Shown one piece after another: positions 40,253 to 64,000 of a stretch of DNA of 64,000 nucleotides. The stretch lies in NCBI RefSeq assembly GCF_009914755.1, contig NC_060937.1; one strand, 5' to 3'. The DNA is from the human T2T-CHM13v2.0 reference genome, Homo sapiens. Position 1 is the first letter of the stretch; each line of letters opens with the position of its first letter. The notes under the pieces were generated by a model that searched no databases, had not been told where the DNA came from, and saw nothing but the letters and a program-made list of their open reading frames with translations. Made by a program: the position numbers and the translations under genes.

Positions 40253-40303
40253 TCACACCGTTTCAATAACTGCAGCAATTTCCTTGAACTGTCTGTAGAA
40301 ATT
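40253..40303 (-). CDS. COMMD6: COMMD6 last coding exon (NFYRQFKEIAAVIETV*)
   Basis: Polypyrimidine tract and CAG| acceptor, 16 codons then TGA. The four exons join in frame to give 85 aa. Confidence 0.96.
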   Translation of the reverse strand, partial: NFYRQFKEIAAVIETV

Positions 40304-43764: not shown

Positions 43765-43917
43765 CTGAAACTGTGGAATCGTCATTTCAAAGCACTTGGT
43801 CTTTACTTGGCCTGAATGATCTGCCACTTTTAGCATCACTGCAACGTAAGGATACTTAAGAGATCTGCAAGTGTCTGAGCTCACAGCCATACCCAGTTTC
43901 CACTGAAAATCTACAAG
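43765..43917 (-). CDS. COMMD6: COMMD6 exon 3, COMM domain (LVDFQWKLGMAVSS...FEMTIPQFQ)
   Basis: 153 nt (51 codons) with acceptor TTAAAG| and donor CAG|GTTTGT. Contains the COMM-domain DFQWKLG motif. Confidence 0.97.
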
Positions 43918-50430: not shown

Positions 50431-51315
50431 AAGAGTTCAACTTTAAAAACCCCATAATTAGTATAATTCTGTTTCAGAATATCTTAAATACAAAACTTAA
50501 CGTAAGAGAATGGATAAAATGACTTATGAAAGATTGACTCGAAATGCACTAAATCATATAACTAAGCAAAGCCAGGTAGACGGTTGACAGCTCTCTGACT
50601 TCCCCTACTTCCCAGGAATCCTCGAAAGCAAGATCAGTTAGAGAAAAATGACAGACAGCAGTCAATGGACACCTCTTTCAGCCCCTGTATTCTAATTATT
50701 TCTTACCTCATCCCTTTCTTACATTTTGTATGGACTTGGGTAACTCCTGGCCTAAAAATACTCTAGTTTTAGTACTCCTATTCTGGGAAGTGTGTTATAA
50801 ATTATTTGCCTACAAATAGTTTATTGGCTACAACAGCACAGCAGCACTTGAAACAGAAATGGGGCTAAGATATACTTTAAAAGTCAAATTCATATTCCTA
50901 GCATTATAAATGCATACTCTAAAAGGCTAAAATGCTATACTCCATCTTCAAAAATAACTTAGAGACTAAGAAAATGTTTGCGGTGCTATCTCTGCAAATT
51001 TTCCTAACTTCTTTATCCAACACTTTAAAATACCGTGTTCCTGGCTTCGAATAACTGTCGCCTAATCAAAGCCCAACAATCCTTGATCTGCATTCTTCGG
51101 GCTAGTGCAGGGTGGGGAAGAGGAGCTTTCATTACAATGGCAACGGCTACCGGCTCAGGTGCAAAAGAGAAGGAGCAATGCAAGAGGGACGGCTGAAGGT
51201 CACCGGCTCGCGGACACAGGACTAGGGGAGACCTGGGGAAGGCTCAGGGTGGCACGGCCTCGCGGCCGTGGGAGGCAGGCTGGCGGAGGACAGGGCGGGG
51301 CGGCCGCTCACCCAC

Positions 51316-51327
51316 CTGGTTGGTGAC
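51316..51327 (-). CDS. COMMD6: COMMD6 12-nt micro-exon 2 (VTNQ)
   Basis: TTTCAG|GTCACCAACCAG|GTGGGT on the minus strand, after an 88-nt intron; phase 0. Confidence 0.93.
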
Positions 51328-51415
51328 CTGAAACGGAAGCAGAAACACAATTTAGAGAAACATCTTTCTTGCTCCAGAGCCTCGCTGCCCACTCTCCTTC
51401 CAGGTTGGAACTCAC

Positions 51416-51457
51416 ATCGGACTTAGCATCCAGCGGCGGCTCGCTGGACGCCTCCAT
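51416..51457 (-). CDS. COMMD6: COMMD6 coding exon 1 (MEASSEPPLDAKSD)
   Basis: ATG at 51457 in CCCATGG context, 14 codons, donor GAT|GTGAGT. The peptide is recognised as the COMMD6 N-terminus. Confidence 0.96.
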
Positions 51458-52887
51458 GGGCAGCGTCTGGGACTTGCGGCCCGGACTCGAGAGAACGCCC
51501 CCAGACCAGCGCTTCCGCTTCCACGTCCTGCCCCTAGCGGCCTGGCGCATGGGGCGGACGTAGCAGGGGAAGCTGAAAAAAGCATCTTTATGTGACTCAT
51601 ATTTTTTCTTAATTCAATATATATCTTAGGAGACATTGAGCTAAAAGAAAATTATTTTATGGAAAAAGGCCAAAGATTTGGGAGATACTTTGAGAAGAGA
51701 AGCGCTAATTAAATTTAGGATGCCGCTTCCCCCATCTAACAGTGACACGTGGGCTCTTCCAGACTGGAGCGGGGCGGGGCACAGCATCCCGCTGCGCGGC
51801 TCCTCAATCCCAACCAAATTCGGAAGGTGCTGGGCGACCGCACCCCCGGCACATGGGAGTTTGTCCTGCAAGGGAAGGCTGTGGGAACCACAGTTATAGG
51901 ATGAGCTGCTTCGCTGGCCTAGCTGTGGGCGGGGCATGCTTTCCATTATCCCTGCTGTTCCTCTTGAATCCCAGCCCTCAGTCTGGCTGCGGAATACCTT
52001 CCCATCTTGTCTTCCCACCTCTTTCCTATTGACCTCAAATCCATCCTACAGGAAGTATCCACAGTGATGTTTTTTCCCCGCCAACTTTGTATTTTGAAAA
52101 ATTTATTTTTTTCAGAAAAATTGCAAAAAATAATTCAATGAACACCTGTATACCCTTCATCTAGATTCACCAACTGTTCGCATTGTACATATTTGCTTTA
52201 TCTCGGCTTGTATTAAGGATGATACTTCACTCCTAAATGCTTGAGCATGTTGTCTCCTAAGAACTAGGGCATTCTTCTAAATAACCACAATTCAACTATC
52301 ACATTCAGGAAATTTAATATTGATAAAATACTATTCTCTAATAAATAAGTCAAATTAAAATTTCCCCACTTGTTTAAACAATATTCTTTAAAGTTATTCC
52401 CTACCCCATCCACAACTAGAATCTAATCAAGGGCCGCCTTGAATTTGGTGATCATGTCTCTTTAGTCTCCTCTAATCTAGAACTGCACCGGTAAACGGTC
52501 AGCAGGACTGTGTTCCTCAATGAAGGTTCCGGGGTGGTGGGGTTTGGGTGGGGGACAGGGGTGGGATCTGCTTTCAGCCTCAATTCAGGTTGTTGGCAGA
52601 GCTCAGTTCTGTGCAGTTTCCTTGCTGGCTTTTAGATGGGGACTCCCAGCTCCTAGAGGCCATCTGCATTCCTTGGCTTGTGGCTCCTTCCTCCACCTTC
52701 AAAGCCAGGAAGGGCAGGTCAAGTCCTCCTCACACTTTAAATCTCTCTGATCTCCCTTTCTGTATGATCTCTCCTGTTCCTGTTCCTTCTTTTGCCACAT
52801 CTCTCTGACTCTAGCCTGAAAAAATTCTCTGTTTCTAGGGGCCTAAAAAATTATTAGATCAAATATAACCAAACAATTAAGAATAAC

Positions 52888-53204
52888 TTTTTTTTTTTTT
52901 GAGACAGAGTCTCAAAAAAAGACACTCACTCTGTCACCCAGACTGGAGTGCAGTGGTGCAATCTAAGCTCATTGCAACCTCTGCCTCCCAGGTTCAAACA
53001 ATTCTCCTGCCTCAGCCTTTTTGAGTAGCTGAGATTGCAGACATGCATCACCATGCCTGGCTAATTTTCATATTTTTAGTAGAGATGGGGTCTCTCCATA
53101 TTGGGCAGGTTGATCTGGAACTCCTGTCCTCACATAATCCACCCACCTCGGGCCTTGGCCTCCCAAAGTGCTGGGATTACAGACGTGAGCCACTGTGCCT
53201 GGCC
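52888..53204 (-). mobile_element. Alu
   Basis: Antisense dimer with a small foldback insertion near the tail. Confidence 0.9.
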
Positions 53205-53565
53205 TCTTTCTATCTTAAGGTACATAAATTTTAATTATATTTGTAAAGTCCCTTCAGATCAGTACCTAAATTAGTGTTTCAATGAGTAATCAGGATGGAA
53301 ATCTTTGGAGGAGGGCATTTTTAGAATAATGCTTACCTTAAATACCCTCATAGGGTTGTTGGAGAATTACATTAGTTAATGCATGTTAAGCACCTAAAAA
53401 TGTCCCTGGCATGTAGCACTCGGAAACTAGGCCAAAAAACCAAAAAACAAACAAAAAAAACCCCCACTGACTCAAGGTTATTGGACGTGATTAAATGTAC
53501 TAATTAGCTTGGGAGGATAGTCCCTGAATGAATCAGACGATTTCTTCTCTAAGGAAGTCAGATGA

Positions 53566-54048
<483 letters not shown>

Positions 54049-54623
54049 TAAAAATGCTTCAAAAAGGTGAAAAGATGTGTATTTTAAAAGGTATTTTTTG
54101 TTATTTCTTTGTATTTTTCATGCATTTCTTTAAAAACTGTTTATTATTGTTCTAATTCAACATGAGTGCACTTCAAAAACCTATCGATCTGATTTGGGGA
54201 GAGTAAAATGTCATTAGAGTTTAGGGCAATCTCTGCCAATTGTTACTCCAGCAACAAGTGATAAACTGTTTATGTTTCAGACCTCCATCTTACAAGAGAT
54301 CACTTACACAAACTTCGCAGTTGGAAAATACAGATGTTATCAATAGAGTCAAAAAATGCTAATATTAAAAATGCATGAGTATAATTTTGTTTTATTTTTA
54401 CATAATGACATATAAGTAGAACATATGTCAGAAAATATTTTTGGAGCTCTTACAGTAAGCCTAGTACTATCACATGCATAGGAAGAAATCCATAGAACTA
54501 TGGCATAAACTCTGATCTCATGAGCATTATGGTGTAATGTAAAAAACGAAATTGGTACTCATGAAGCAGGCAATGCTTCAATTTAAGTATTTATTTTAAG
54601 ACTTTTTTGTGCCAAGAGATATG

Positions 54624-54868
54624 CAGTTGTCCCTCAGTGTACTTAGGAGATTGGTTCCAGGACCAATTAAGGGAGATGACAATGTACCAAAATCTGCATA
54701 TACTCAAGTCCTACATACAGTCTGTCCTGCTGAACTTGAGTATAGGAAAATTCTGCCTCCCTATTTGTCGGTTTAGCATCCTGGGAGTATAGCAGCTTTG
54801 ATCTGTGGTTGGTTTTAAAAAAAATCTCACCAGCACAGTTCAAACCCATGTTGTTCAAGGGTCAACTG
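54624..54868. mobile_element. Tigger-family MITE (MER8-like)
   Basis: Terminal inverted repeats CAGTTGTCCCT / AGGGTCAACTG. Confidence 0.8.
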
Positions 54869-55459
54869 AAATTCTAACTTGAGCTAGCCTAAGCAAAGTA
54901 GCAGAAATTATTGTCTCACAGAGGCAGCCTTTGAAATGTAGTGGTAGCAGCTTCAGGGTCAACAGAATTGTGAGATGTGAATAGCAAAAGTGCCCCATCT
55001 CCACTTCTCAGTTGTGGTATGGCCTTCTGCTTGACTGCTGGCTTCGGTCTCTTCAGCTTCTCCATACATTGTTGGAGAGTAGTGTGTATATATAGACATA
55101 TGACCACCAACATCTCTGGGTTCACAGCCTTATGACTCATGATCCAAGGAGAAAGAGGAAGCTGCCCGTTCATCTCAATTCTCAGAGAAGGACTCTAGTT
55201 GATCTGCTTGGACCAATACGGGTCTGGAGTGATGTGTTACTATTTTTGCCCATGTTGCCTGCTGTGTTCATAAGGCGTAGAGTTGTGTGATTGGTAGAGT
55301 CACTGGAAGTAAAAGGGGTGAAAAGCCATGCTCTAGAGAAGATGGAGGTGAGAATGAGGCAACAAAGCTTGGGTGCAAATATACTAGGGAAACAAAATAA
55401 ATGTGCACTCAACATATTTACTATACTGTATTACAATACACTATCCTGTGTAGTCAATG

Positions 55460-57200
<1,741 letters not shown>

Positions 57201-58099
57201 TTTGACAGAGTAGAGCATAACAATGAGTGCTGCGATCTTGACAGTCACCTAGGCCTGAATCTAAAGCCCTCTTCTACCACTCAGCTGTGTGATATCATTC
57301 AAGTTGGCTTTTCTGAGCATCAGCTTTCTTAGCTGTAAAAATAGAGCTATCAATATTTGTCCCACAAGGTTTTTATTAAGGGATAAATGAGATCTTGTAT
57401 GTAAAGCATGTAACAAAGGTTCTGAACATAGTAAGTGCTGATAAATCCTAGATGCTATTGTCATCAGCACGATATTCAATACTCCAAAGAAGCCTATAGG
57501 TTATGTAGATCATACATTATCTCTATTTTAAAGGTGAGAAAACTGAAGTTCAGGAATGGTAAGCAACAGCACCTAGCTAATAAGTAAAACTTAAAGCAGT
57601 CTGGTATTAATTTACAATTTGCAATCTAATTTCAGAGAGCTCTGGAGAGATTCCTGACTCCCAGTGTATCTGCTGAAATGCTCCTCAGCTACTTTCTGCT
57701 AATTGACTGTTTTATTTGTACTCCAGGTTATTCAAGAAGATGAGTGATTCTGTGTGTGTTGTGGTGGTGGTGGGTGGGGGGGAGGTGGGGTAATCATCAA
57801 GCAGCATCAGTAAGATGCAGAACCGGGAATAAGCATGATCACTAATCCTATAATCATGGAAGTTTTAGAGTTTAAAGTGGGACTTAAAATTTTTAGCCTT
57901 TAGGCCAAATTTGGCCTACTCACATGATTGAAAAACAAAACAAAACAAAAAACAATCTATATCAGAAACTCCGAATGAGAATGCACTTAGAAAAGTTTTA
58001 TGCCTTCCAGTTGTCACAGTCCTTACATCACTCTTTCATTTCTCCTGTCTACTTCACACATTTGAAAACTTCAAGACATAGTTTTCAACCTTCGGCTTA

Positions 58100-58612
<513 letters not shown>

Positions 58613-59117
58613 AAGACTTAAGTAGGTAAAGTGCCTGGTTTAGAGAAACACAGCTAGATAGTCATGATTTCTGATCAAGTGTGGAGAATGAGTTCATTCT
58701 GAGGACAAGGCCTAATTACGTAAGGCATTGGTATGTTTTCAAGCACTGCCAAAAGGCCACGTTTAGGAATGATAGTTTGGCAATACAACATACATTCAAG
58801 GCAGATGATGGGTACAAACCCATGCAGCAGGAAGGAAGCTGGACATACTGCTATTAAGATAAGTAATATAAGATGGTGAGTAGTCAAAGTGAAGTGCCAT
58901 GAATGAGTTACAGGTATACAGAGAGACTGACCCCGCCCAACCCCACAGCCCTAGGGGCAGTTAGGTGGGGCCTGAACGTGAAAGATTCCCTGGGCTGGTT
59001 ACAACTGTGATGACAAACTTAAGTCAGGTGTTGTACAAATAGCAAATTTCATCAATTCTTAGACATGTATTTTTTCACATTTACATCAGGAATTATAGTG
59101 ACCATTACATCAGATGG

Positions 59118-59432
59118 TTTCTTTTTCTTTTTCTCTTTTTTTTTTTGAGATGGAGTCTTGCTCTGTCACCCAGGCTGGAGTGCCGTGGCGGTGGCGCTAT
59201 CTCTGCTCACTGCGAGCTCCGCCTCCTGGGTTCACACCATTCTCCTGCCTCAGGCTCCCGAGTAATGGGACTACAGACGCCCGCCACCACGCCTGGTTAA
59301 TTTTCTGTATTTTTAGTAGAGACCGGGTTTCACCATGTTAGCCAGGATGGTCTAGATCTCCTGACCTCATGATCTGCCCGCCTCGGCCTCCCTGAATGTT
59401 GGGATTACAGGTGTCAGCCACCGAGCCCAGCC
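59118..59432 (-). mobile_element. AluY/Sc-like
   Basis: TSD TCAGATGG. Confidence 0.9.
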
Positions 59433-59584
59433 TCAGATGGCTTCTTAAAGTGATAGTTAATCAGGGTAGTAGTCGTGACTCAGTTGTTTTTGCAGGTGCA
59501 TGCATGAACTTCTTCATAGCTCTTCTACACTTCTATAGAGTTATGAATATTGTTTGCTCTATATTTACTATGGTTAATTGCCAT

Positions 59585-59815
59585 TTATAGCACAATAGGG
59601 TGACTATAGTCAATAATAATTGTACATTTTAAAAATAACTTAAGGAGTATAATTGGAGTGTTTGTAACTCAAAGGATAAATGCTTGAGGGGATGGATACC
59701 CCATTCTCCATGATGTACTTATTTCACTCTGTATGCCTATACCAAAGCATTTCATGTACCCATTTCAATATATATACCTACCAAGTATCCCCAAAAATTG
59801 AAAAATAAAATTTTA
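59585..59815 (+). mobile_element. L1MA-like 3' end
   Basis: AGGATAAATGCTTGAGGGGATGGATACCCCATTCTCCATGATG. Confidence 0.85.
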
Positions 59816-60509
59816 AAACATTGACATTTAAAATGTCTTTTAAAAGGCTATGCTGTAATTTGGCAAAACAAAAAGTTACTGGGTATGGAAATAAGCATGA
59901 ACAGAACAACAGGTTGCAAACTTGCACTGGTGAGGCAAATATGGACTATTGGAGGAATAGCCACAATTCCATGTATTCTTGCAAAGTAACCAAATAATTT
60001 ACAATTCCTAAAAAAGGTGGATAGCTTTGAGTAGATAAGTTACTCAAGTTGCTTATTTCAGTTTAAGGTTGGAGAAATCACCAAATCCCTCAGAATATAA
60101 GAAAAAAATGTATTAGGATGAGAGAACAGTTTTTTGAGTCACAAGTACTCTTGTTAAGGCATCAAACATTAATTTGTCAAAAACTTCCTGCTTGTCTTTG
60201 AATAGAAGCTATTAAATTTCCAAAGATGTATGATTCAGCAGTTGCTGCAAAATTAACTATATGCTTAGTCAAGTAGGAAATAGCGATAAACCTTTATATC
60301 CTTTGACAACCATCAAAATTATACTGTCAATGCTAAAGATACTAAAAGTGCATGGATTTATGTAAATAAGTGGCATGACACTATGACACTGTGCATAGGC
60401 ATGCCACTATATTTAATTGAAAACTGTAAAATATTTAAGAAAATCTTCTCCTGTGATGATATTGTGCATACTCACAAGAAGGGGATGTACAATGTTTTAG
60501 TTGATGATC

Positions 60510-61108
60510 TATAAAGTTGCCGTGAACACTGAATTAGCAAATACTAAATCGTTGCTTCTAGGGGAAATACAGGTTAGGTTCCTGTGAGCCTGTGGTCACA
60601 ATATTTTCATTAGCTAATCAATACATAACCTTGTTTTATGTGTATTTCTGTTTAAAAACACCTTATGTAATATATATTGTTGATTCATTAGCATTGAACT
60701 ACAGCCAACAGCACTGTAAGTGAAAACCTGAACAAACCTTATCTAATATGTGTATTTTCTCTGTAAGGCACATGAAAGCCTCCTTGGGCTTGGGATTACT
60801 AAATAGCAGTTGAGCACGATGCTTGGGGGCCATTTTAAACATTGAATTCACTGACAAAAATCTCAAAAATGGGAAAATGAGCATTAAATAGACCATCAAG
60901 AGGACTCTCGTTTCCAGTATAAGAGCTGCAAGAAGAAGGCAGAGTATCACCTTGCTCAACCTTGGCTGGGAACTACAATTTTTTGTCATCCTGTGAATAT
61001 TTGTGAGTGACCACGACAACTTTGTGAGTATAGATTTGGGAATTACCAATAAATTTTAGCAAGTAGGCAGGTTCAAAATGCAAAACCCATAAATAATGAG
61101 GATGGACA
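60510..61108 (-). mobile_element. Tigger-family fossil (MER82-like)
   Basis: GAACACTGAATTAGCAAATACT...AATAAATTTTAGCAAGTAGG...ATAATGAGGAT. Confidence 0.65.
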
Positions 61109-61399
61109 GAACTTTGTAAAACTTCAAAGTCATATGGCAAAGGATGTGGGTAAAGGGAAGATTAAAAAATTAGAACCAGTGATGCCCAATCTTGGGCTCC
61201 GTCTCAGACTTATTGAATCAAAATCTGCATTTCATATTCCCCAGGTGTTTTTATGCACCTCTGAGACATGCTGCCCTCAATACCATGATAGGTACATCCA
61301 TACCAGACGGTGTAGGTTAAACTGTATAAACCATATAAACCAGACGGTGGAAGTTAAAATGTACAGTTTAACTCTACAAATTAGAGTCCTACATTTGTA

Positions 61400-61960
61400 A
61401 GGGTTTTATGGGTCTAAAGGTCTGGGGTGTGCTAGGACAACCTCTGTAAGGTGAAAGACAAGTTATTGCATCTTGCAATTCCTATTCACAGCAAAATGGC
61501 AGAGAACCTACTGGGCCTCTTTGGCTTTTGGAGATAGAATATACACTTGGGAATACAGCTTCAACACATTTATTGGGTGGTATGGAAAGCTACCAATTTG
61601 AGTGGATCCCTAGCAAGACAGTGCTCTGCAGCAAGTCCCTGCTGGGATGCAAACTGTCTTGCTGTCCGGCCTTGTGTCTCAGCAGATCCAATGCTGCTAG
61701 TGTCCCTGGAAGATAAAGATGCTGTGTGAAGTCTTAAGCAACCCTAACAGGTGAATCACAGTGCAGAACCTCAGGGATCTGGAACAAGGCAATTCCTTTG
61801 ACAGTAAGTAATTTGAAAAGCAGCCCCTGGCATGCACTGAGTCCAGCAGAGACTAAGAGTCTGGCAATGTAACTCTAGTGATAATGCAACTAAGCCCATC
61901 ACGAGCTGGACACTGCCAGTTTTACCAAGCCAAAGTGTTAGGTGAGTATAGCAGCAATCC
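61400..61960 (+). mobile_element. Decayed ERVL pol (RT/RNase H region) relic
   Basis: Fragmentary translations KDKLLHLA, LLGLFGFWR, DPMLLVSLEDKDAV and FEKQPLAC, broken by stops and frameshifts. Confidence 0.7.
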
Positions 61961-63481
61961 ATTAGATAACGATGAAGAGGAGTTAAGGTAATGAAATACC
62001 TCTGAAGTCAAAGAACAGTGGCCAGAAGAACGTGGGTGGGAGAGTTGGAAGTTTCCCAAGAAATATAAGCTCAGCATAATATTATCTTTTTCTGACTCCC
62101 TAACTGCTCTCTACCTGAATTTCCTCTATTAGGTGCAGAATAGTAATATGCACTCTTCCCCAGGTCAAATTTATGGAGTTATCATTGATAACTTCTGCTC
62201 ATCAAAGGCATCATCCCTTAAAACAGAATCTCTTTAATCTGTGCCTTTCTCCGTGGCTACTGTTTTAATTTTTTCAGCATTTATTTCTCACACGTTTTTC
62301 ACATTATTGACAAGTGATGTTTCTGCATATCTGATCATCCCATTTATTCTTCAGATGTTTACCGAGCATTTTCTATGTATCATGCACTGGGTTAGGCCCT
62401 GGATAAATAATGTGAAGAAGAAAAAAAAGACACTGCTACTGGGCTCCTGGAATTTGCAGTTTGGTGAAAAAGATACATGACAAATCCTGCTTAAGATCCT
62501 TCAGTGGTTCCTTGCTGTTTTCAGGAAGCCCAGATGTCTTGACCGGGTTGCCTCTGTTTACCTCTACAGCATCACCTCTAATCAGCACCCTTTACTCTGC
62601 AGCCACAGTGCGTTTTCCCTTCTTCACAGCACCTTCCTCTCTGCCTAGGTAAAGTCTACCATCTTTTAAGGGTTCAGTCCAGGAATCCACTTTTTCAGGA
62701 AGACTTCTGGACACTCTCTTCCCCCTTCCTCCGTAATTCCAGCACACTTCATGCCATCACTATCATATAGGTACCACGCTTTTTATCCTGATTCTCCGTT
62801 GTCTTGTCCACTGCCTCTACTCCACAGTGAACTCAACTTTGTGTCAATACTTAGTACAGTGATTTCTAGTACTCGACATTTTTTGTCAAATGGAATCGGA
62901 TATATAGAAACACCCGCTGCCTCCCGCAAGAGCAGACAAGGCCAACCCATCACTCCTGCACCCCGACAAAGGAACAACAGTACCGTGCTGCACGGCGTCC
63001 TCCGGCCTTGCTGCCTGGCAATGGGTAGCCACCTGGCGTCTGTCTCAGAATAGGACTCCGCGGCACGCCTCCTAGCGCAGTCGGTTGACACTGCAAGAAT
63101 GGGAAGGTGCGGGTGACCACGCGGTCCCAGACCGGCGCAAGGCGCATGCGTAGAACGCGAGCGCTTGGCAAGGCTCGGCTCGGAAGAGTCCAAGCGTGAG
63201 GGAAGAGGGCTGTGGATTCAGATACTGTTTTTCTCCCGAAATAGGAAATTGGCTTATTTTTTTCTCCTCGGCAGCATCTTAATTTAAAATATGACACTTG
63301 ACCTACGGCCCTGCACGGAGCGGTTAAGAGGGTGAGAGGCCCGTCAAACTCTTTTTGGTGTTTAGGCGCTCCTCCTCCGGGCGGTGTGTTGGGAGGGCCC
63401 AGGTCAAGGCGCGCGTGGGCGGAAGCGGCGGCGGCGGCGAAGGCGGCGGCTGTCAGAGCTGGAGGGCCGGGCACCGCGGCC

Positions 63482-63523
63482 ATGGAGGGTCAACGCTGGC
63501 TGCCGCTGGAGGCCAATCCCGAG
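63482..63523 (+). CDS. UCHL3: UCHL3 coding exon 1 (MEGQRWLPLEANPE), ubiquitin C-terminal hydrolase L3
   Basis: Kozak GCCATGG, the UCH-family WLPLEANPE motif, donor GAG|GTGGGC. Confidence 0.97.
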
Positions 63524-63636
63524 GTGGGCGCGCTTCGGGGCAGCCCTGGGCCGTGGGCAGGTGCAGAGGGAGCCGGCTTGCTGCCGCGAGTCCACGGTGG
63601 TTTGTCTCTAAAGCGTGTTCTCTGTTTCGTTTTCAG

Positions 63637-63648
63637 GTCACCAACCAG
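63637..63648 (+). CDS. UCHL3: UCHL3 12-nt micro-exon 2 (VTNQ); gene continues beyond the window
   Basis: TTTTCAG|GTCACCAACCAG|GTGAGT after a 113-nt intron. Confidence 0.94.
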
Positions 63649-64000
63649 GTGAGTGAGGTGTCTGTCGCTCGGGACTTCGGAGTCTTTTCTGTCTGCTCGG
63701 TCCGCTTCCCTGCTGGACTCCACCTCCACGCTTCCAGGGATTCTGGGATTTAATTTCTTGAGGGCCCCTCTTGTTCGGCTTTACGCGGGTCCGCCCCTTT
63801 CAGAAAGGGCCATCTCGCTGCCACCTGGCTCCTGAAGATTCTCCCACCACTCCTCTGGTCCCATTCTGCAGTCACCACGTATCTTGGGGACTCCGGGTCT
63901 GAGGTTTGGAGGGACTTTTACCCTGTATTCCTATTCCCCTTCCTTCTTCGTTTTGCCTCCTGTTAGTGCCGATTCCATAATTTTCCTACCGGTGTACCTT

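What the first reader, a model, noticed from the sequence alone, without database searches (positions are those of the whole stretch)
51307..63657. The 5' end of COMMD6 looks like an inverted duplicate of the 5' end of its neighbour UCHL3 (chimeric gene)
Seen: both genes start with a 42-nt coding exon (CC-ATGGAG...CCGCTGGA.GC.AA..CCGA.|GTG; 28/42 nt identical by my count; MEASSEPPLDAKSD vs MEGQRWLPLEANPE). Each is followed by a short intron (88 vs 113 nt) with alignable 3' ends (TCTCTAAATTGTGTTTCTGCTTCCGTTTCAG vs TCTCTAAAGCGTGTTCTCTGTTTCGTTTTCAG). Both then have an identical 12-nt micro-exon GTCACCAACCAG (VTNQ) followed by GTG(G/A)GTGAG. The copies face away from each other ~12 kb apart. Established: WLPLEANPE is the conserved UCH-family N-terminus, so UCHL3 is the donor, and human COMMD6 is the COMMD member that lacks the N-terminal helical domain. 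Inference: a local inverted duplication captured the UCHL3 CpG promoter, start codon and micro-exon and replaced the ancestral COMMD6 5' exons. I cannot check whether this has been published.
Basis: partly seen in the sequence, partly recalled or inferred. Interest (0 to 1): 0.85.

Follow-up and report, generated by a model that had tools for sequence, protein, structure and literature searches.

The report
COMMD6 start exons copied from UCHL3
The first two coding exons of human COMMD6 are an old, inverted copy of the first two coding exons of its head-to-head neighbour UCHL3, which plausibly explains how mammalian COMMD6 came to lack the helical N-terminal domain found in birds, reptiles, amphibians and fish.

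Summary
COMMD6 (- strand, 51459-51307) and UCHL3 (+ strand, 63480-63657) share, in the same order:
- a 42-nt start-codon exon, 28 of 42 nt identical;
- the last ~32 nt of intron 1;
- an identical 12-nt micro-exon and its donor site.

The local alignment scores 55, against 14.8±2.3 for 500 dinucleotide shuffles (z = 17). A whole-genome search finds no third copy.

UCHL3 is the donor. Its N-terminus is kept from fish to mammals, and it forms positions 1-13 of the Peptidase_C12 profile. The COMMD6 version appears only in placental protein models. Bird, reptile, amphibian and fish COMMD6 are 199-207 aa and carry an HN domain.

No remnant of the HN exons is detectable in the window.

Three points are not shown:
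- Promoter capture. Upstream similarity is at chance level, apart from one shared 9-mer at -61/-63 from the start codons.
- The order of HN loss and cassette gain.
- The date. Echidna has a short form without the micro-exon residues, and no marsupial COMMD6 was seen.

None of the nine full-text searches returned a paper whose listed title or opened passages describe this origin. Verdict: a real, apparently undescribed example of a known kind, a chimeric gene made by partial duplication of a neighbour.

The parts
51416..51457 (-). COMMD6 first coding exon (42 nt, MEASSEPPLDAKSD), a copy of UCHL3 coding exon 1
   Evidence: 28 of 42 nt identical to 63482-63523. 0 of 1000 shuffles reach the score. 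Sequence.
51458..51545 (-). COMMD6 proximal 5'UTR and core promoter region (annotated TSS 51493). Holds GCGGAAGCG at 51518-51510. Homology to the UCHL3 promoter is not demonstrated.
   Evidence: Upstream alignment is at chance (244 of 1000). Shared 9-mer at -61/-63 reached by 21 of 2000 shuffles, and CpG o/e 0.77 for 51200-51650.
51328..51415 (-). COMMD6 intron 1 (88 nt). Only its last ~32 nt (TCTCTAAA..., pyrimidine tract, AG) align with UCHL3 intron 1.
   Evidence: First half 552 of 1000 shuffles; 3' part plus micro-exon 0 of 1000.
51316..51327 (-). COMMD6 12-nt micro-exon (VTNQ), identical to UCHL3 exon 2
51307..51315 (-). Donor site after the micro-exon (GTGGGTGAG) and end of detectable homology
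   Evidence: The 300 nt beyond show no similarity (447 of 1000).
63482..63523 (+). UCHL3 first coding exon (MEGQRWLPLEANPE), the donor copy
   Evidence: This N-terminus is present in 77 of 120 UCHL3 protein models from fish to mammals. The Pfam Peptidase_C12 profile starts at residue 6.
63524..63636 (+). UCHL3 intron 1 (113 nt)
63637..63657 (+). UCHL3 12-nt exon 2 (VTNQ) and its donor GTGAGTGAG
63419..63427 (+). GCGGAAGCG motif 63 nt upstream of the UCHL3 ATG, matching the motif 61 nt upstream of the COMMD6 ATG
43765..43917 (-). COMMD6 COMM-domain exon (51 codons, phase 0), the ancestral COMMD6 part onto which the UCHL3-derived exons splice
   Evidence: The HMM of 26 full-length COMMD6 hits it at E 7e-33, profile positions 137-188.
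40253..40303 (-). COMMD6 last coding exon (16 codons plus stop)
   Evidence: HMM E 3.6e-6.
62984..63100 (-). Distal alternative COMMD6 first exon, 63 nt from an annotated UCHL3 TSS (63163). Probably the ancestral head-to-head promoter. In Old World monkey models it codes and splices directly to the COMM exon.
   Evidence: Supplied annotation. tblastn of P0005 maps its N-terminus to 63078-62972. Sequence.

Best explanation
In a mammalian ancestor, no later than the common ancestor of placentals, a short piece of the 5' end of UCHL3 was copied in inverted orientation. The copy landed about 12 kb away, inside COMMD6, upstream of the COMM-domain exon. It held at least the start codon and exon 1, intron 1, the 12-nt exon 2 and its donor site, and possibly the core promoter.

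The two genes lie head to head, so an inverted copy of UCHL3's start points the same way as COMMD6. All junctions are phase 0, so the two copied exons splice in frame onto the COMM exon. The product is the 85-aa protein that starts MEASSEPPLDAKSD-VTNQ-LVDFQWKL.

This cassette gave COMMD6 a new proximal transcription and translation start. That start bypasses the HN-domain exons, which then decayed beyond recognition.

Shown: the homology, its extent, its orientation, the donor, and the restriction of this N-terminus to placental models.
Inferred: that the cassette caused the HN loss, that the promoter came with it, and the date.

Similarity survives only where selection acts: the coding exons, a TCTCTAAA element at the usual branch-point distance, the pyrimidine tract, and the acceptor and donor sites.
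For: Homology and extent: (z = 17; two colinear blocks; 12 of 12 micro-exon). There is no third copy in the genome, so this is not a repeat family. The intron was copied, so the event was at DNA level.

Donor direction:
- 77 of 120 UCHL3 models carry LE[AS]NP[ED] before exon 3. In 60 of them it is followed directly by V[TMI]NQ. They include marsupials, birds, reptiles, Xenopus and fish.
- 22 of the 83 representatives with >=10 upstream residues (132 scored, 50%-identity library) carry W.P[LIVM]E[SANT][NDS]P just before the exon-3 match.
- Pfam Peptidase_C12 positions 1-211 align to UCHL3 residues 6-214, and exon 3 starts at profile position 10.
- PDB chains of UCHL1, yeast YUH1, UCHL5 and BAP1 align from UCHL3 residues 4-7.

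Recipient history:
- At least 40 of 227 COMMD6 models have a long HN-type N-terminus. By the names these come from birds, reptiles, amphibians and fish.
- 75 of 227 have the exon-1-like plus micro-exon N-terminus, and 17 of 227 the same with the micro-exon skipped. The named ones I read are placental, and they include manatee, tenrec, sloth, bat, sheep and rodents. The one exception is P0132, attributed to a tick, which I read as host contamination (see noticed in passing). Many of the rest are unnamed.
- Turtle COMMD6 hits COMM_HN. Pig and echidna hit only COMM_domain.
- Adjacency predates the event: quail UCHL3 and COMMD6 carry consecutive locus tags on the same contigs (ASZ78_014102/014103 and H355_004818/004819).

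The copied peptide is under constraint in COMMD6. In 50 models with an 18-aa N-terminus, the mean majority frequency per column is 0.84, against 0.87 for the COMM part.
Against: - Demonstrable homology is only about 100 nt in two blocks.
- The promoter region (244 of 1000), the intron interior (552 of 1000) and the downstream flank (447 of 1000) are at chance.
- No HN-exon remnant lies between the cassette and the distal promoter. The former position of those exons therefore cannot be shown.
- The echidna model (P0182, 80 aa) is short and lacks VTNQ. Its 13-aa N-terminus shares only MEG and two prolines with the placental form. HN loss may therefore be older than, or independent of, the cassette.
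- No marsupial COMMD6 appeared in the complete 'near' list (107 of 107 shown) or in the 120 shown of 389 'longer' hits, although marsupial UCHL3 is in the same database.
- All cross-species evidence comes from protein models, many of them predicted and some plainly wrong. No non-human DNA was examined.
Confidence: 0.8

Rival explanations
1. Two steps. COMMD6 first lost use of its HN exons through an internal start or promoter, as in the COMM-only isoforms predicted in other vertebrates. The UCHL3-derived cassette was acquired later, in the therian or placental stem, and only improved an already truncated gene.
For: Six models from fish and a bird start at a Met in the last HN exon (M..[VIT]GQ, then the COMM exon; P0185, P0187, P0191, P0192, P0193, P0198). 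The echidna model is short but has no VTNQ, and its N-terminus is not clearly related. The platypus model also lacks HN (P0081), though that model is poor.
Against: The short non-mammalian forms are predicted isoforms or partial models. Echidna starts MEG like UCHL3 and like the placental consensus MEGSSEPQLDAKSKVTNQ, so it may be the same exon after divergence, with the micro-exon skipped. Placentals also have models that skip the micro-exon (17 of 227).
Confidence: 0.17
2. The similarity is chance or convergence. Two GC-rich first exons with Kozak ATGGAG starts and two micro-exons with strong splice signals could look alike without common descent.
For: Similarity is confined to functionally constrained elements. 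The flanks and the intron interior are at chance.
Against: 0 of 500 and 0 of 1000 shuffles reach the observed scores. The two blocks are colinear and have the same exon-intron layout. The micro-exon is 12 of 12 identical, with 37 nt at 89% around it. It is the only other match in a 3.1-Gb genome.
Confidence: 0.01
3. The reverse direction: COMMD6 owned these exons and UCHL3 copied them.
For: None found.
Against: The UCHL3 N-terminus is conserved to fish and Xenopus. It is part of the Peptidase_C12 profile and of the alignments to UCHL1, YUH1, UCHL5 and BAP1. Non-mammalian COMMD6 has an unrelated HN domain there.
Confidence: 0.01
4. A modifier rather than an alternative: the identical micro-exon and its flanks reflect later gene conversion between the two copies, not purifying selection alone.
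For: All four synonymous third positions of the micro-exon are identical, as are 33 of 37 nt around it, while exon 1 has 14 of 42 differences.
Against: Rodent and other placental models have VTCQ, VTGQ, VTSQ or VTDQ in COMMD6, which argues against steady homogenisation. A 12-nt exon needs strong, conserved splice signals, and those alone can explain the conservation (inference).
Confidence: 0.1

Closest known systems
Chimeric genes formed by DNA-level partial duplication or exon shuffling from a neighbouring gene (a general class; the class is recalled, not tested)
   Same: One reading frame joins exons of two unrelated ancestries. The donor keeps an intact copy. Intron and splice signals were copied, so the event was at DNA level. 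Exon phases are compatible (all phase 0; coordinates).
   Different: The copied piece is very small (two exons of 42 and 12 nt). It is inverted and lands inside the head-to-head neighbour. Its effect is to remove a domain (HN), not to add one. Only 13 of the 211 profile positions of the donor domain are carried over.
Full-length vertebrate COMMD6 (199-207 aa, HN + COMM; for example chicken P0084, turtle P0101, axolotl P0068, gar P0111)
   Same: The COMM-domain exons are orthologous. Listed non-mammalian models are 71-88% identical to human exon 3, and the exon boundary before L[IV]D.QWKLG is the same.
   Different: The human gene has no detectable HN exons. In their place are 18 residues of UCHL3 origin.
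UCHL3 exons 1-2 (start of the Peptidase_C12 domain, PF01088)
   Same: 9 of 18 residues match between the placental COMMD6 consensus N-terminus and the commonest UCHL3 N-terminus. In human DNA, 40 of the 54 coding nt match.
   Different: In COMMD6 the conserved W-L-P of the UCH motif is replaced, and no catalytic domain follows. Pig COMMD6 has no PF01088 hit at E <= 0.01.
Human Commander/CCC complex structures (PDB 8F2R, 8F2U, 8P0W)
   Same: The deposited COMMD6 chains are this 85-aa protein, or its residues 9-85, and include the UCHL3-derived residues.
   Different: [quoted passage not shown] No origin is given in the passages I saw.

Membership tests
Chimeric gene by DNA-level partial duplication of a neighbour | Two parts of one ORF have different ancestry | tested here: met
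   COMM exons match the COMMD6 HMM (E 7e-33 and 3.6e-6). The first 18 codons match UCHL3 exons 1-2.
Chimeric gene by DNA-level partial duplication of a neighbour | Nucleotide homology includes non-coding parts (intron, splice signals), which excludes retroposition | tested here: met
   The last ~32 nt of intron 1 and 9 nt of the next intron align. 0 of 1000 shuffles reach the score. Also.
Chimeric gene by DNA-level partial duplication of a neighbour | The donor gene is older and keeps an intact copy | tested here: met
   The UCHL3 N-terminus occurs in 77 of 120 models from fish to mammals. Pfam covers residues 6-214.
Chimeric gene by DNA-level partial duplication of a neighbour | The chimeric form is absent from outgroup lineages | tested here: inconclusive
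   Absent from the bird, reptile, amphibian and fish models seen. Echidna is short but lacks VTNQ. No marsupial COMMD6 was seen. Only protein models were examined, no DNA.
Chimeric gene by DNA-level partial duplication of a neighbour | The chimeric mRNA and protein are made | not testable with these tools
   This rests on the supplied RefSeq annotation (NM_203495.4) and on the 85-aa chain deposited in 8F2U and 8P0W. No expression data were examined.
COMMD family (COMM_domain PF07258 with COMM_HN PF21672) | C-terminal COMM domain | tested here: met
   Proteins 100% identical to the query over exon 3 carry a precomputed PF07258 hit. The pig orthologue scores E 4.1e-15.
COMMD family (COMM_domain PF07258 with COMM_HN PF21672) | N-terminal helical HN domain | tested here: not met
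   Nothing in the six-frame window matches profile positions 1-136 (best non-COMM E 8.8). tblastn with 10 full-length proteins gave only E > 1 outside the COMM exons. Turtle has COMM_HN.
UCH / Peptidase_C12 (PF01088), considered for the COMMD6 N-terminus | Catalytic domain of 211 profile positions | tested here: not met
   Only residues equivalent to UCHL3 1-18 were copied. There is no PF01088 hit in pig COMMD6 at E <= 0.01.
Head-to-head gene pair with a shared bidirectional promoter | Divergent transcription starts less than 1 kb apart in a CpG island | tested here: met
   The TSSs come from the supplied annotation (COMMD6 distal exon ends at 63100; UCHL3 starts at 63163 and 63452). CpG o/e is 0.86 for 62900-63750. 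[quoted passage not shown]

The most novel reading that the evidence does not exclude
A single event in the mammalian stem lineage, the inverted copy of UCHL3's promoter, start exon and micro-exon into its head-to-head neighbour, is what removed the HN domain of COMMD6 from the mammalian Commander complex. The borrowed 18-residue peptide has since taken on a role of its own in the complex, since it is conserved across placentals about as strongly as the COMM domain. The 12-nt micro-exon with its splicing signals has then been kept as a working module in two unrelated genes since before the placental radiation.
Probability: 0.35. Interest if true: 0.65.

Novelty: new member of a known kind. Interest (0 to 1): 0.55.

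Why it matters
Structural papers on the Commander/CCC complex note that human COMMD6 is the only one of the ten COMMD subunits without an HN domain, while other vertebrates keep it. In the passages I saw they give no cause. This finding offers a concrete genomic mechanism that can be tested.

It is also a clean small example of three things:
- a head-to-head gene arrangement lets an inverted local duplication donate a start exon to the neighbour;
- gaining exons can cause the loss of a domain;
- a 12-nt micro-exon and its splice signals can persist in two unrelated genes.

In practice, it warns that the first 18 residues of COMMD6 are homologous to UCHL3. That matters for homology searches, for antibodies or peptides raised against either N-terminus, and for primer or guide design at the two micro-exons.

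Tried and rejected
- **Remnants of the HN exons.** tblastn of 10 full-length non-mammalian COMMD6 against the window hit only the two COMM exons; everything else was E > 1. An HMM of 26 full-length proteins against 3838 six-frame pieces gave the same result, with best non-COMM E 8.8.
- **Promoter homology.** Not above chance. Only a post hoc 9-mer test gave 21 of 2000.
- **Distal exon 62984-63100 as the old COMMD6 exon 1.** The monkey peptide encoded there (P0005) shows no similarity to the tuatara N-terminus.
- **An 'RWLP' string in that monkey peptide.** It looked like the UCHL3 motif, but it maps to the distal exon on the minus strand, not to a UCHL3 exon copy. I treat it as coincidence.
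- **Dating through marsupials.** None appeared in the lists.
- **de Bie et al. 2006 and Maine & Burstein 2007.** These are the papers most likely to describe COMMD6 gene structure, and neither is held. I could not check them.
- **Structure prediction and complex prediction.** Not run, because a monomer model of an obligate-dimer domain would not decide anything here.

Full report
**1. The observation**

Read on the minus strand, COMMD6 runs as follows:
- ATG at 51457 and a 42-nt coding exon (51416-51457);
- an 88-nt intron;
- the 12-nt exon GTCACCAACCAG (51316-51327);
- the donor GTGGGTGAG.

UCHL3 on the plus strand has the same layout:
- ATG at 63482 and a 42-nt coding exon (63482-63523);
- a 113-nt intron;
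- the same 12-nt exon (63637-63648);
- the donor GTGAGTGAG.

The two start exons are 28 of 42 nt identical without gaps. Codon by codon, the 18 codons give 9 identical residues in human.

blastn finds two colinear matches. One is 53 nt at 86.8% (E 2.3e-10). The other is 48 nt at 77.1% (E 6.5e-4).

A gapped local alignment runs from 51545-51307 to 63399-63657 and scores 55. Five hundred dinucleotide-preserving shuffles give 14.8±2.3 with a maximum of 22.75, so z = 17.2. I also slid 430-nt segments over both strands of the whole window. The UCHL3 site is the best hit that does not overlap the query. Apart from the query's own region on either strand and a segment overlapping the UCHL3 site, the listed scores are <=20.25.

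The repeat finder reports the pair independently: 37 nt, 89% complementary, 12,277 nt apart. Of the pairs whose sequences it printed, this is the only one that is not Alu-like or an A/T run by my reading. The ten longest pairs are shown without sequence. All but two of them (I5, I8) have both arms inside stretches that the supplied table marks as masked repeats; in those two, the arm at 52920-53018 is not in that partial table.

A search of the whole 3.1-Gb assembly with 51300-51470(-) returns only the query and the UCHL3 site, 2 of 2 matches. This is therefore not a dispersed repeat.

**2. Extent of the homology**

Each section was tested with 1000 shuffles:

| Section | Shuffles reaching the observed score |
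|---|---|
| Exon 1 | 0 of 1000 (z = 7.6) |
| Last 32 nt of the intron + micro-exon + 9 nt of the next intron | 0 of 1000 (z = 17.5) |
| First half of the intron | 552 of 1000 |
| 150 nt upstream of the ATGs | 244 of 1000 |
| 300 nt downstream | 447 of 1000 |

Demonstrable homology is thus about 51459-51307 against 63480-63657. It is confined to elements that selection would keep:
- the coding sequence;
- a TCTCTAAA element about 25 nt before the acceptor;
- the pyrimidine tract;
- the acceptor and the donor.

Reading TCTCTAAA as the branch point is my inference from its position. An old duplication should look like this once its neutral parts have decayed.

**3. Which gene is the donor**

UCHL3 exon 3 lies at C13:74784398-74784538 and matches Pfam Peptidase_C12 positions 10-57. 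The first nine or so profile positions must therefore lie in exons 1-2.

A full-length UCHL3 (P0245) aligns to profile positions 1-211 with its residues 6-214. PDB chains of UCHL1, Plasmodium UCHL3, yeast YUH1, UCHL5, Calypso and BAP1 align from UCHL3 residues 4-7.

Among the 120 listed relatives of UCHL3 exon 3, 77 carry LE[AS]NP[ED] just upstream. In 60 of these it is followed directly by V[TMI]NQ, and in 10 the micro-exon residues are absent. Eight of the 120 had no recognisable exon-3 start. By name these include placentals, marsupials, birds, lizards, turtles, Xenopus, coelacanth, gar and teleosts.

In the nameless 50%-identity library, 132 representatives were examined. Of these, 83 have at least 10 residues upstream of the match, and 22 of the 83 carry W.P[LIVM]E[SANT][NDS]P there. 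Most of the others look like unspliced single-exon fragments.

UCHL3 is therefore the original owner of these exons.

**4. History of the recipient**

I searched with the COMM exon (P0001) in two length classes and tabulated what precedes the COMM exon in 227 proteins:

| Count of 227 | What precedes the COMM exon |
|---|---|
| 75 | Exon-1-like peptide plus micro-exon residues |
| 17 | Exon-1-like peptide with the micro-exon skipped |
| at least 40 | Long HN-type N-terminus ending ..[VI]G[QK] |
| 9 | Short upstream ending [VIMT][GN][QK]; six of these start at a Met in the last HN exon |
| 56 | Other upstream sequence (alternative first exons, intron read-through, poor models) |
| 30 | No recognisable COMM-exon start |

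The classes are regex-based and approximate. Two axolotl-type HN proteins fell into 'other', and two VTNQ models fell into the fourth row.

Going by the names:
- The UCHL3-like N-terminus occurs in all four placental superorders: manatee and tenrec; sloth; bats, ungulates and carnivores; primates, rodents and rabbits. The only named non-placental carrier I read is P0132, attributed to a tick, which I take to be host contamination (section 9).
- The HN-type occurs in birds, crocodilians, turtles, tuatara, amphibians, sharks and bony fish.

Pfam finds COMM_HN in turtle COMMD6. It finds only COMM_domain in pig and echidna.

In quail, UCHL3 and COMMD6 have consecutive locus tags on one contig. The two genes were therefore already neighbours while COMMD6 still had its HN domain.

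The echidna model (80 aa) is short, with a 13-residue N-terminus that starts MEG but has no VTNQ. The platypus model is poor.

No marsupial COMMD6 appeared, although marsupial UCHL3 proteins are in the same database. Only 120 of the 389 'longer' hits were listed, so this absence is weak evidence.

**5. What is left of the old 5' end**

Neither search finds anything but the two COMM exons in the window. The searches were tblastn with 10 full-length proteins and an HMM of 26 full-length proteins against all six frames.

The supplied annotation shows an alternative COMMD6 first exon at 62984-63100. It lies 63 nt from one UCHL3 start (63163) and 352 nt from the main one (63452). The surrounding CpG island has an o/e of 0.86, against 0.19 in the 9 kb between the two sites.

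A gelada isoform model codes in this exon and splices straight to the COMM exon. In human, the position of that ATG reads CTG and the frame differs.

I read this exon as the ancestral head-to-head promoter, still weakly in use. Its peptide shows no similarity to the ancestral exon 1, so this remains an inference.

**6. Promoter capture**

The hints are:
- GCGGAAGCG lies 61 nt before the COMMD6 ATG and 63 nt before the UCHL3 ATG. An exact match that long, within ±3 nt of register, occurs in 21 of 2000 shuffles. I chose this test after seeing the motif.
- The proximal COMMD6 site is a CpG island, with o/e 0.77.
- The annotated 5'UTRs are 36 and 30 nt.

I put promoter co-duplication at roughly even odds.

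**7. Mechanism**

The genes are divergent, so an inverted copy of the UCHL3 start is co-oriented with COMMD6. All exon junctions are phase 0 (42 nt, 12 nt, 153 nt). The ancestral HN exon also ended in phase 0 before the same COMM exon (..VGQ | L[IV]D).

The cassette could therefore splice in frame at once. It provided a start codon, and probably a promoter, downstream of the HN exons.

The copied peptide has since been constrained in COMMD6. In 50 models with an 18-residue N-terminus, the mean majority frequency per column is 0.84, against 0.87 for the COMM part. The consensus is MEGSSEPQLDAKSKVTNQ, with 9 of 18 residues identical to UCHL3.

The deposited COMMD6 chains in the Commander structures are the 85-aa protein (8F2U, 8P0W) or its residues 9-85 (8F2R). 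I could not inspect the coordinates.

**8. What is in print**

Passages in Healy et al. 2018 (PMC6089597), Healy et al. [quoted passage not shown] The passages I saw give no cause.

| Full-text search | Papers |
|---|---|
| COMMD6 + UCHL3 | 16 |
| COMMD6 + UCHL3 + exon | 4 |
| COMMD6 + 'chimeric gene' | 0 |
| COMMD6 + 'inverted duplication' | 0 |
| COMMD6 + 'exon shuffling' | 0 |
| COMMD6 + marsupial | 0 |
| COMMD6 + amino terminal + isoform + orthologs | 0 |
| UCHL3 + microexon | 0 |

A ninth search (COMMD6 + 'HN domain' + lacks) returned the 4 HN-domain papers used above.

Of the 16 COMMD6 + UCHL3 papers, 15 were listed and I judged them by title and abstract start. I opened passages in three. 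Those treat the two genes only as neighbours or as members of an interaction network.

de Bie et al. 2006 and Maine & Burstein 2007 are not held. Subscription journals are largely outside the library, and I read no supplementary files. I can say the origin is not in the searched text. I cannot say it has never been noted.

**9. Verdict**

The duplication is real, old and directional (UCHL3 to COMMD6). It most likely underlies the HN-less COMMD6 of placental mammals. The general mechanism is a known kind. This instance appears to be undescribed, and it explains a recognised oddity of the Commander complex.

Seen in passing:
- a tick-attributed UniRef COMMD6 with the placental N-terminus (P0132), probably host contamination;
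- two intronless UCHL3 copies with stop codons on contig 11;
- read-through gene models that fuse TBC1D4 with COMMD6 in pig and UCHL3 with LMO7 in apes.

Noticed in passing
protein P0132: A UniRef COMMD6 attributed to the tick Ixodes ricinus has the placental-type N-terminus (MEGSSDPVLDAKAKVTNQ) and is 90% identical to human exon 3. It is most likely host (blood-meal) contamination of a tick transcriptome.
   Followed up: no
G000 C11:56433725-56434285 and C11:56447575-56448105 (L003, L004): Two intronless UCHL3-like stretches cover Peptidase_C12 profile positions 15-209 and 25-209 in one piece, with 6 and 4 in-frame stops. They look like processed pseudogenes of UCHL3 in tandem, 14 kb apart.
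   Followed up: no
window 62984-63100 (-): Distal COMMD6 first exon beside the UCHL3 promoter. In gelada and colobus models it begins with ATG and codes for 33 residues spliced directly to the COMM exon. In human the same position reads CTG and the frame is broken.
   Followed up: partly
proteins P0052-P0057 and P0277-P0285: Some gene models fuse neighbours of this locus. Pig TBC1D4 models carry a COMM domain, and chimpanzee and baboon LMO7 isoforms carry a Peptidase_C12 domain. These point to read-through transcripts, or to model errors, across TBC1D4-COMMD6 and UCHL3-LMO7.
   Followed up: no
proteins P0185, P0187, P0191, P0192, P0193, P0198: Six fish and bird COMMD6 models of 73-78 aa start at a conserved Met six residues before the COMM exon (M..[VIT]GQ). 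This may be a COMM-only isoform that predates mammals. All are predicted or partial models.
   Followed up: no
window 61554-63483 (-), LOC128966782 in the supplied annotation: The predicted ORF runs antisense through the UCHL3 first exon and the shared CpG island, and reuses the distal COMMD6 exon boundary at 62984. It looks like a GC-rich open frame rather than a conserved gene. Not evaluated.
   Followed up: no
window 51136-51327 (-) and protein P0003: An orangutan isoform model starts at an ATG in the intron after the micro-exon (human 51132-51031, 88% identical) and splices to the COMM exon. This gives a third, unrelated N-terminus for COMMD6.
   Followed up: partly
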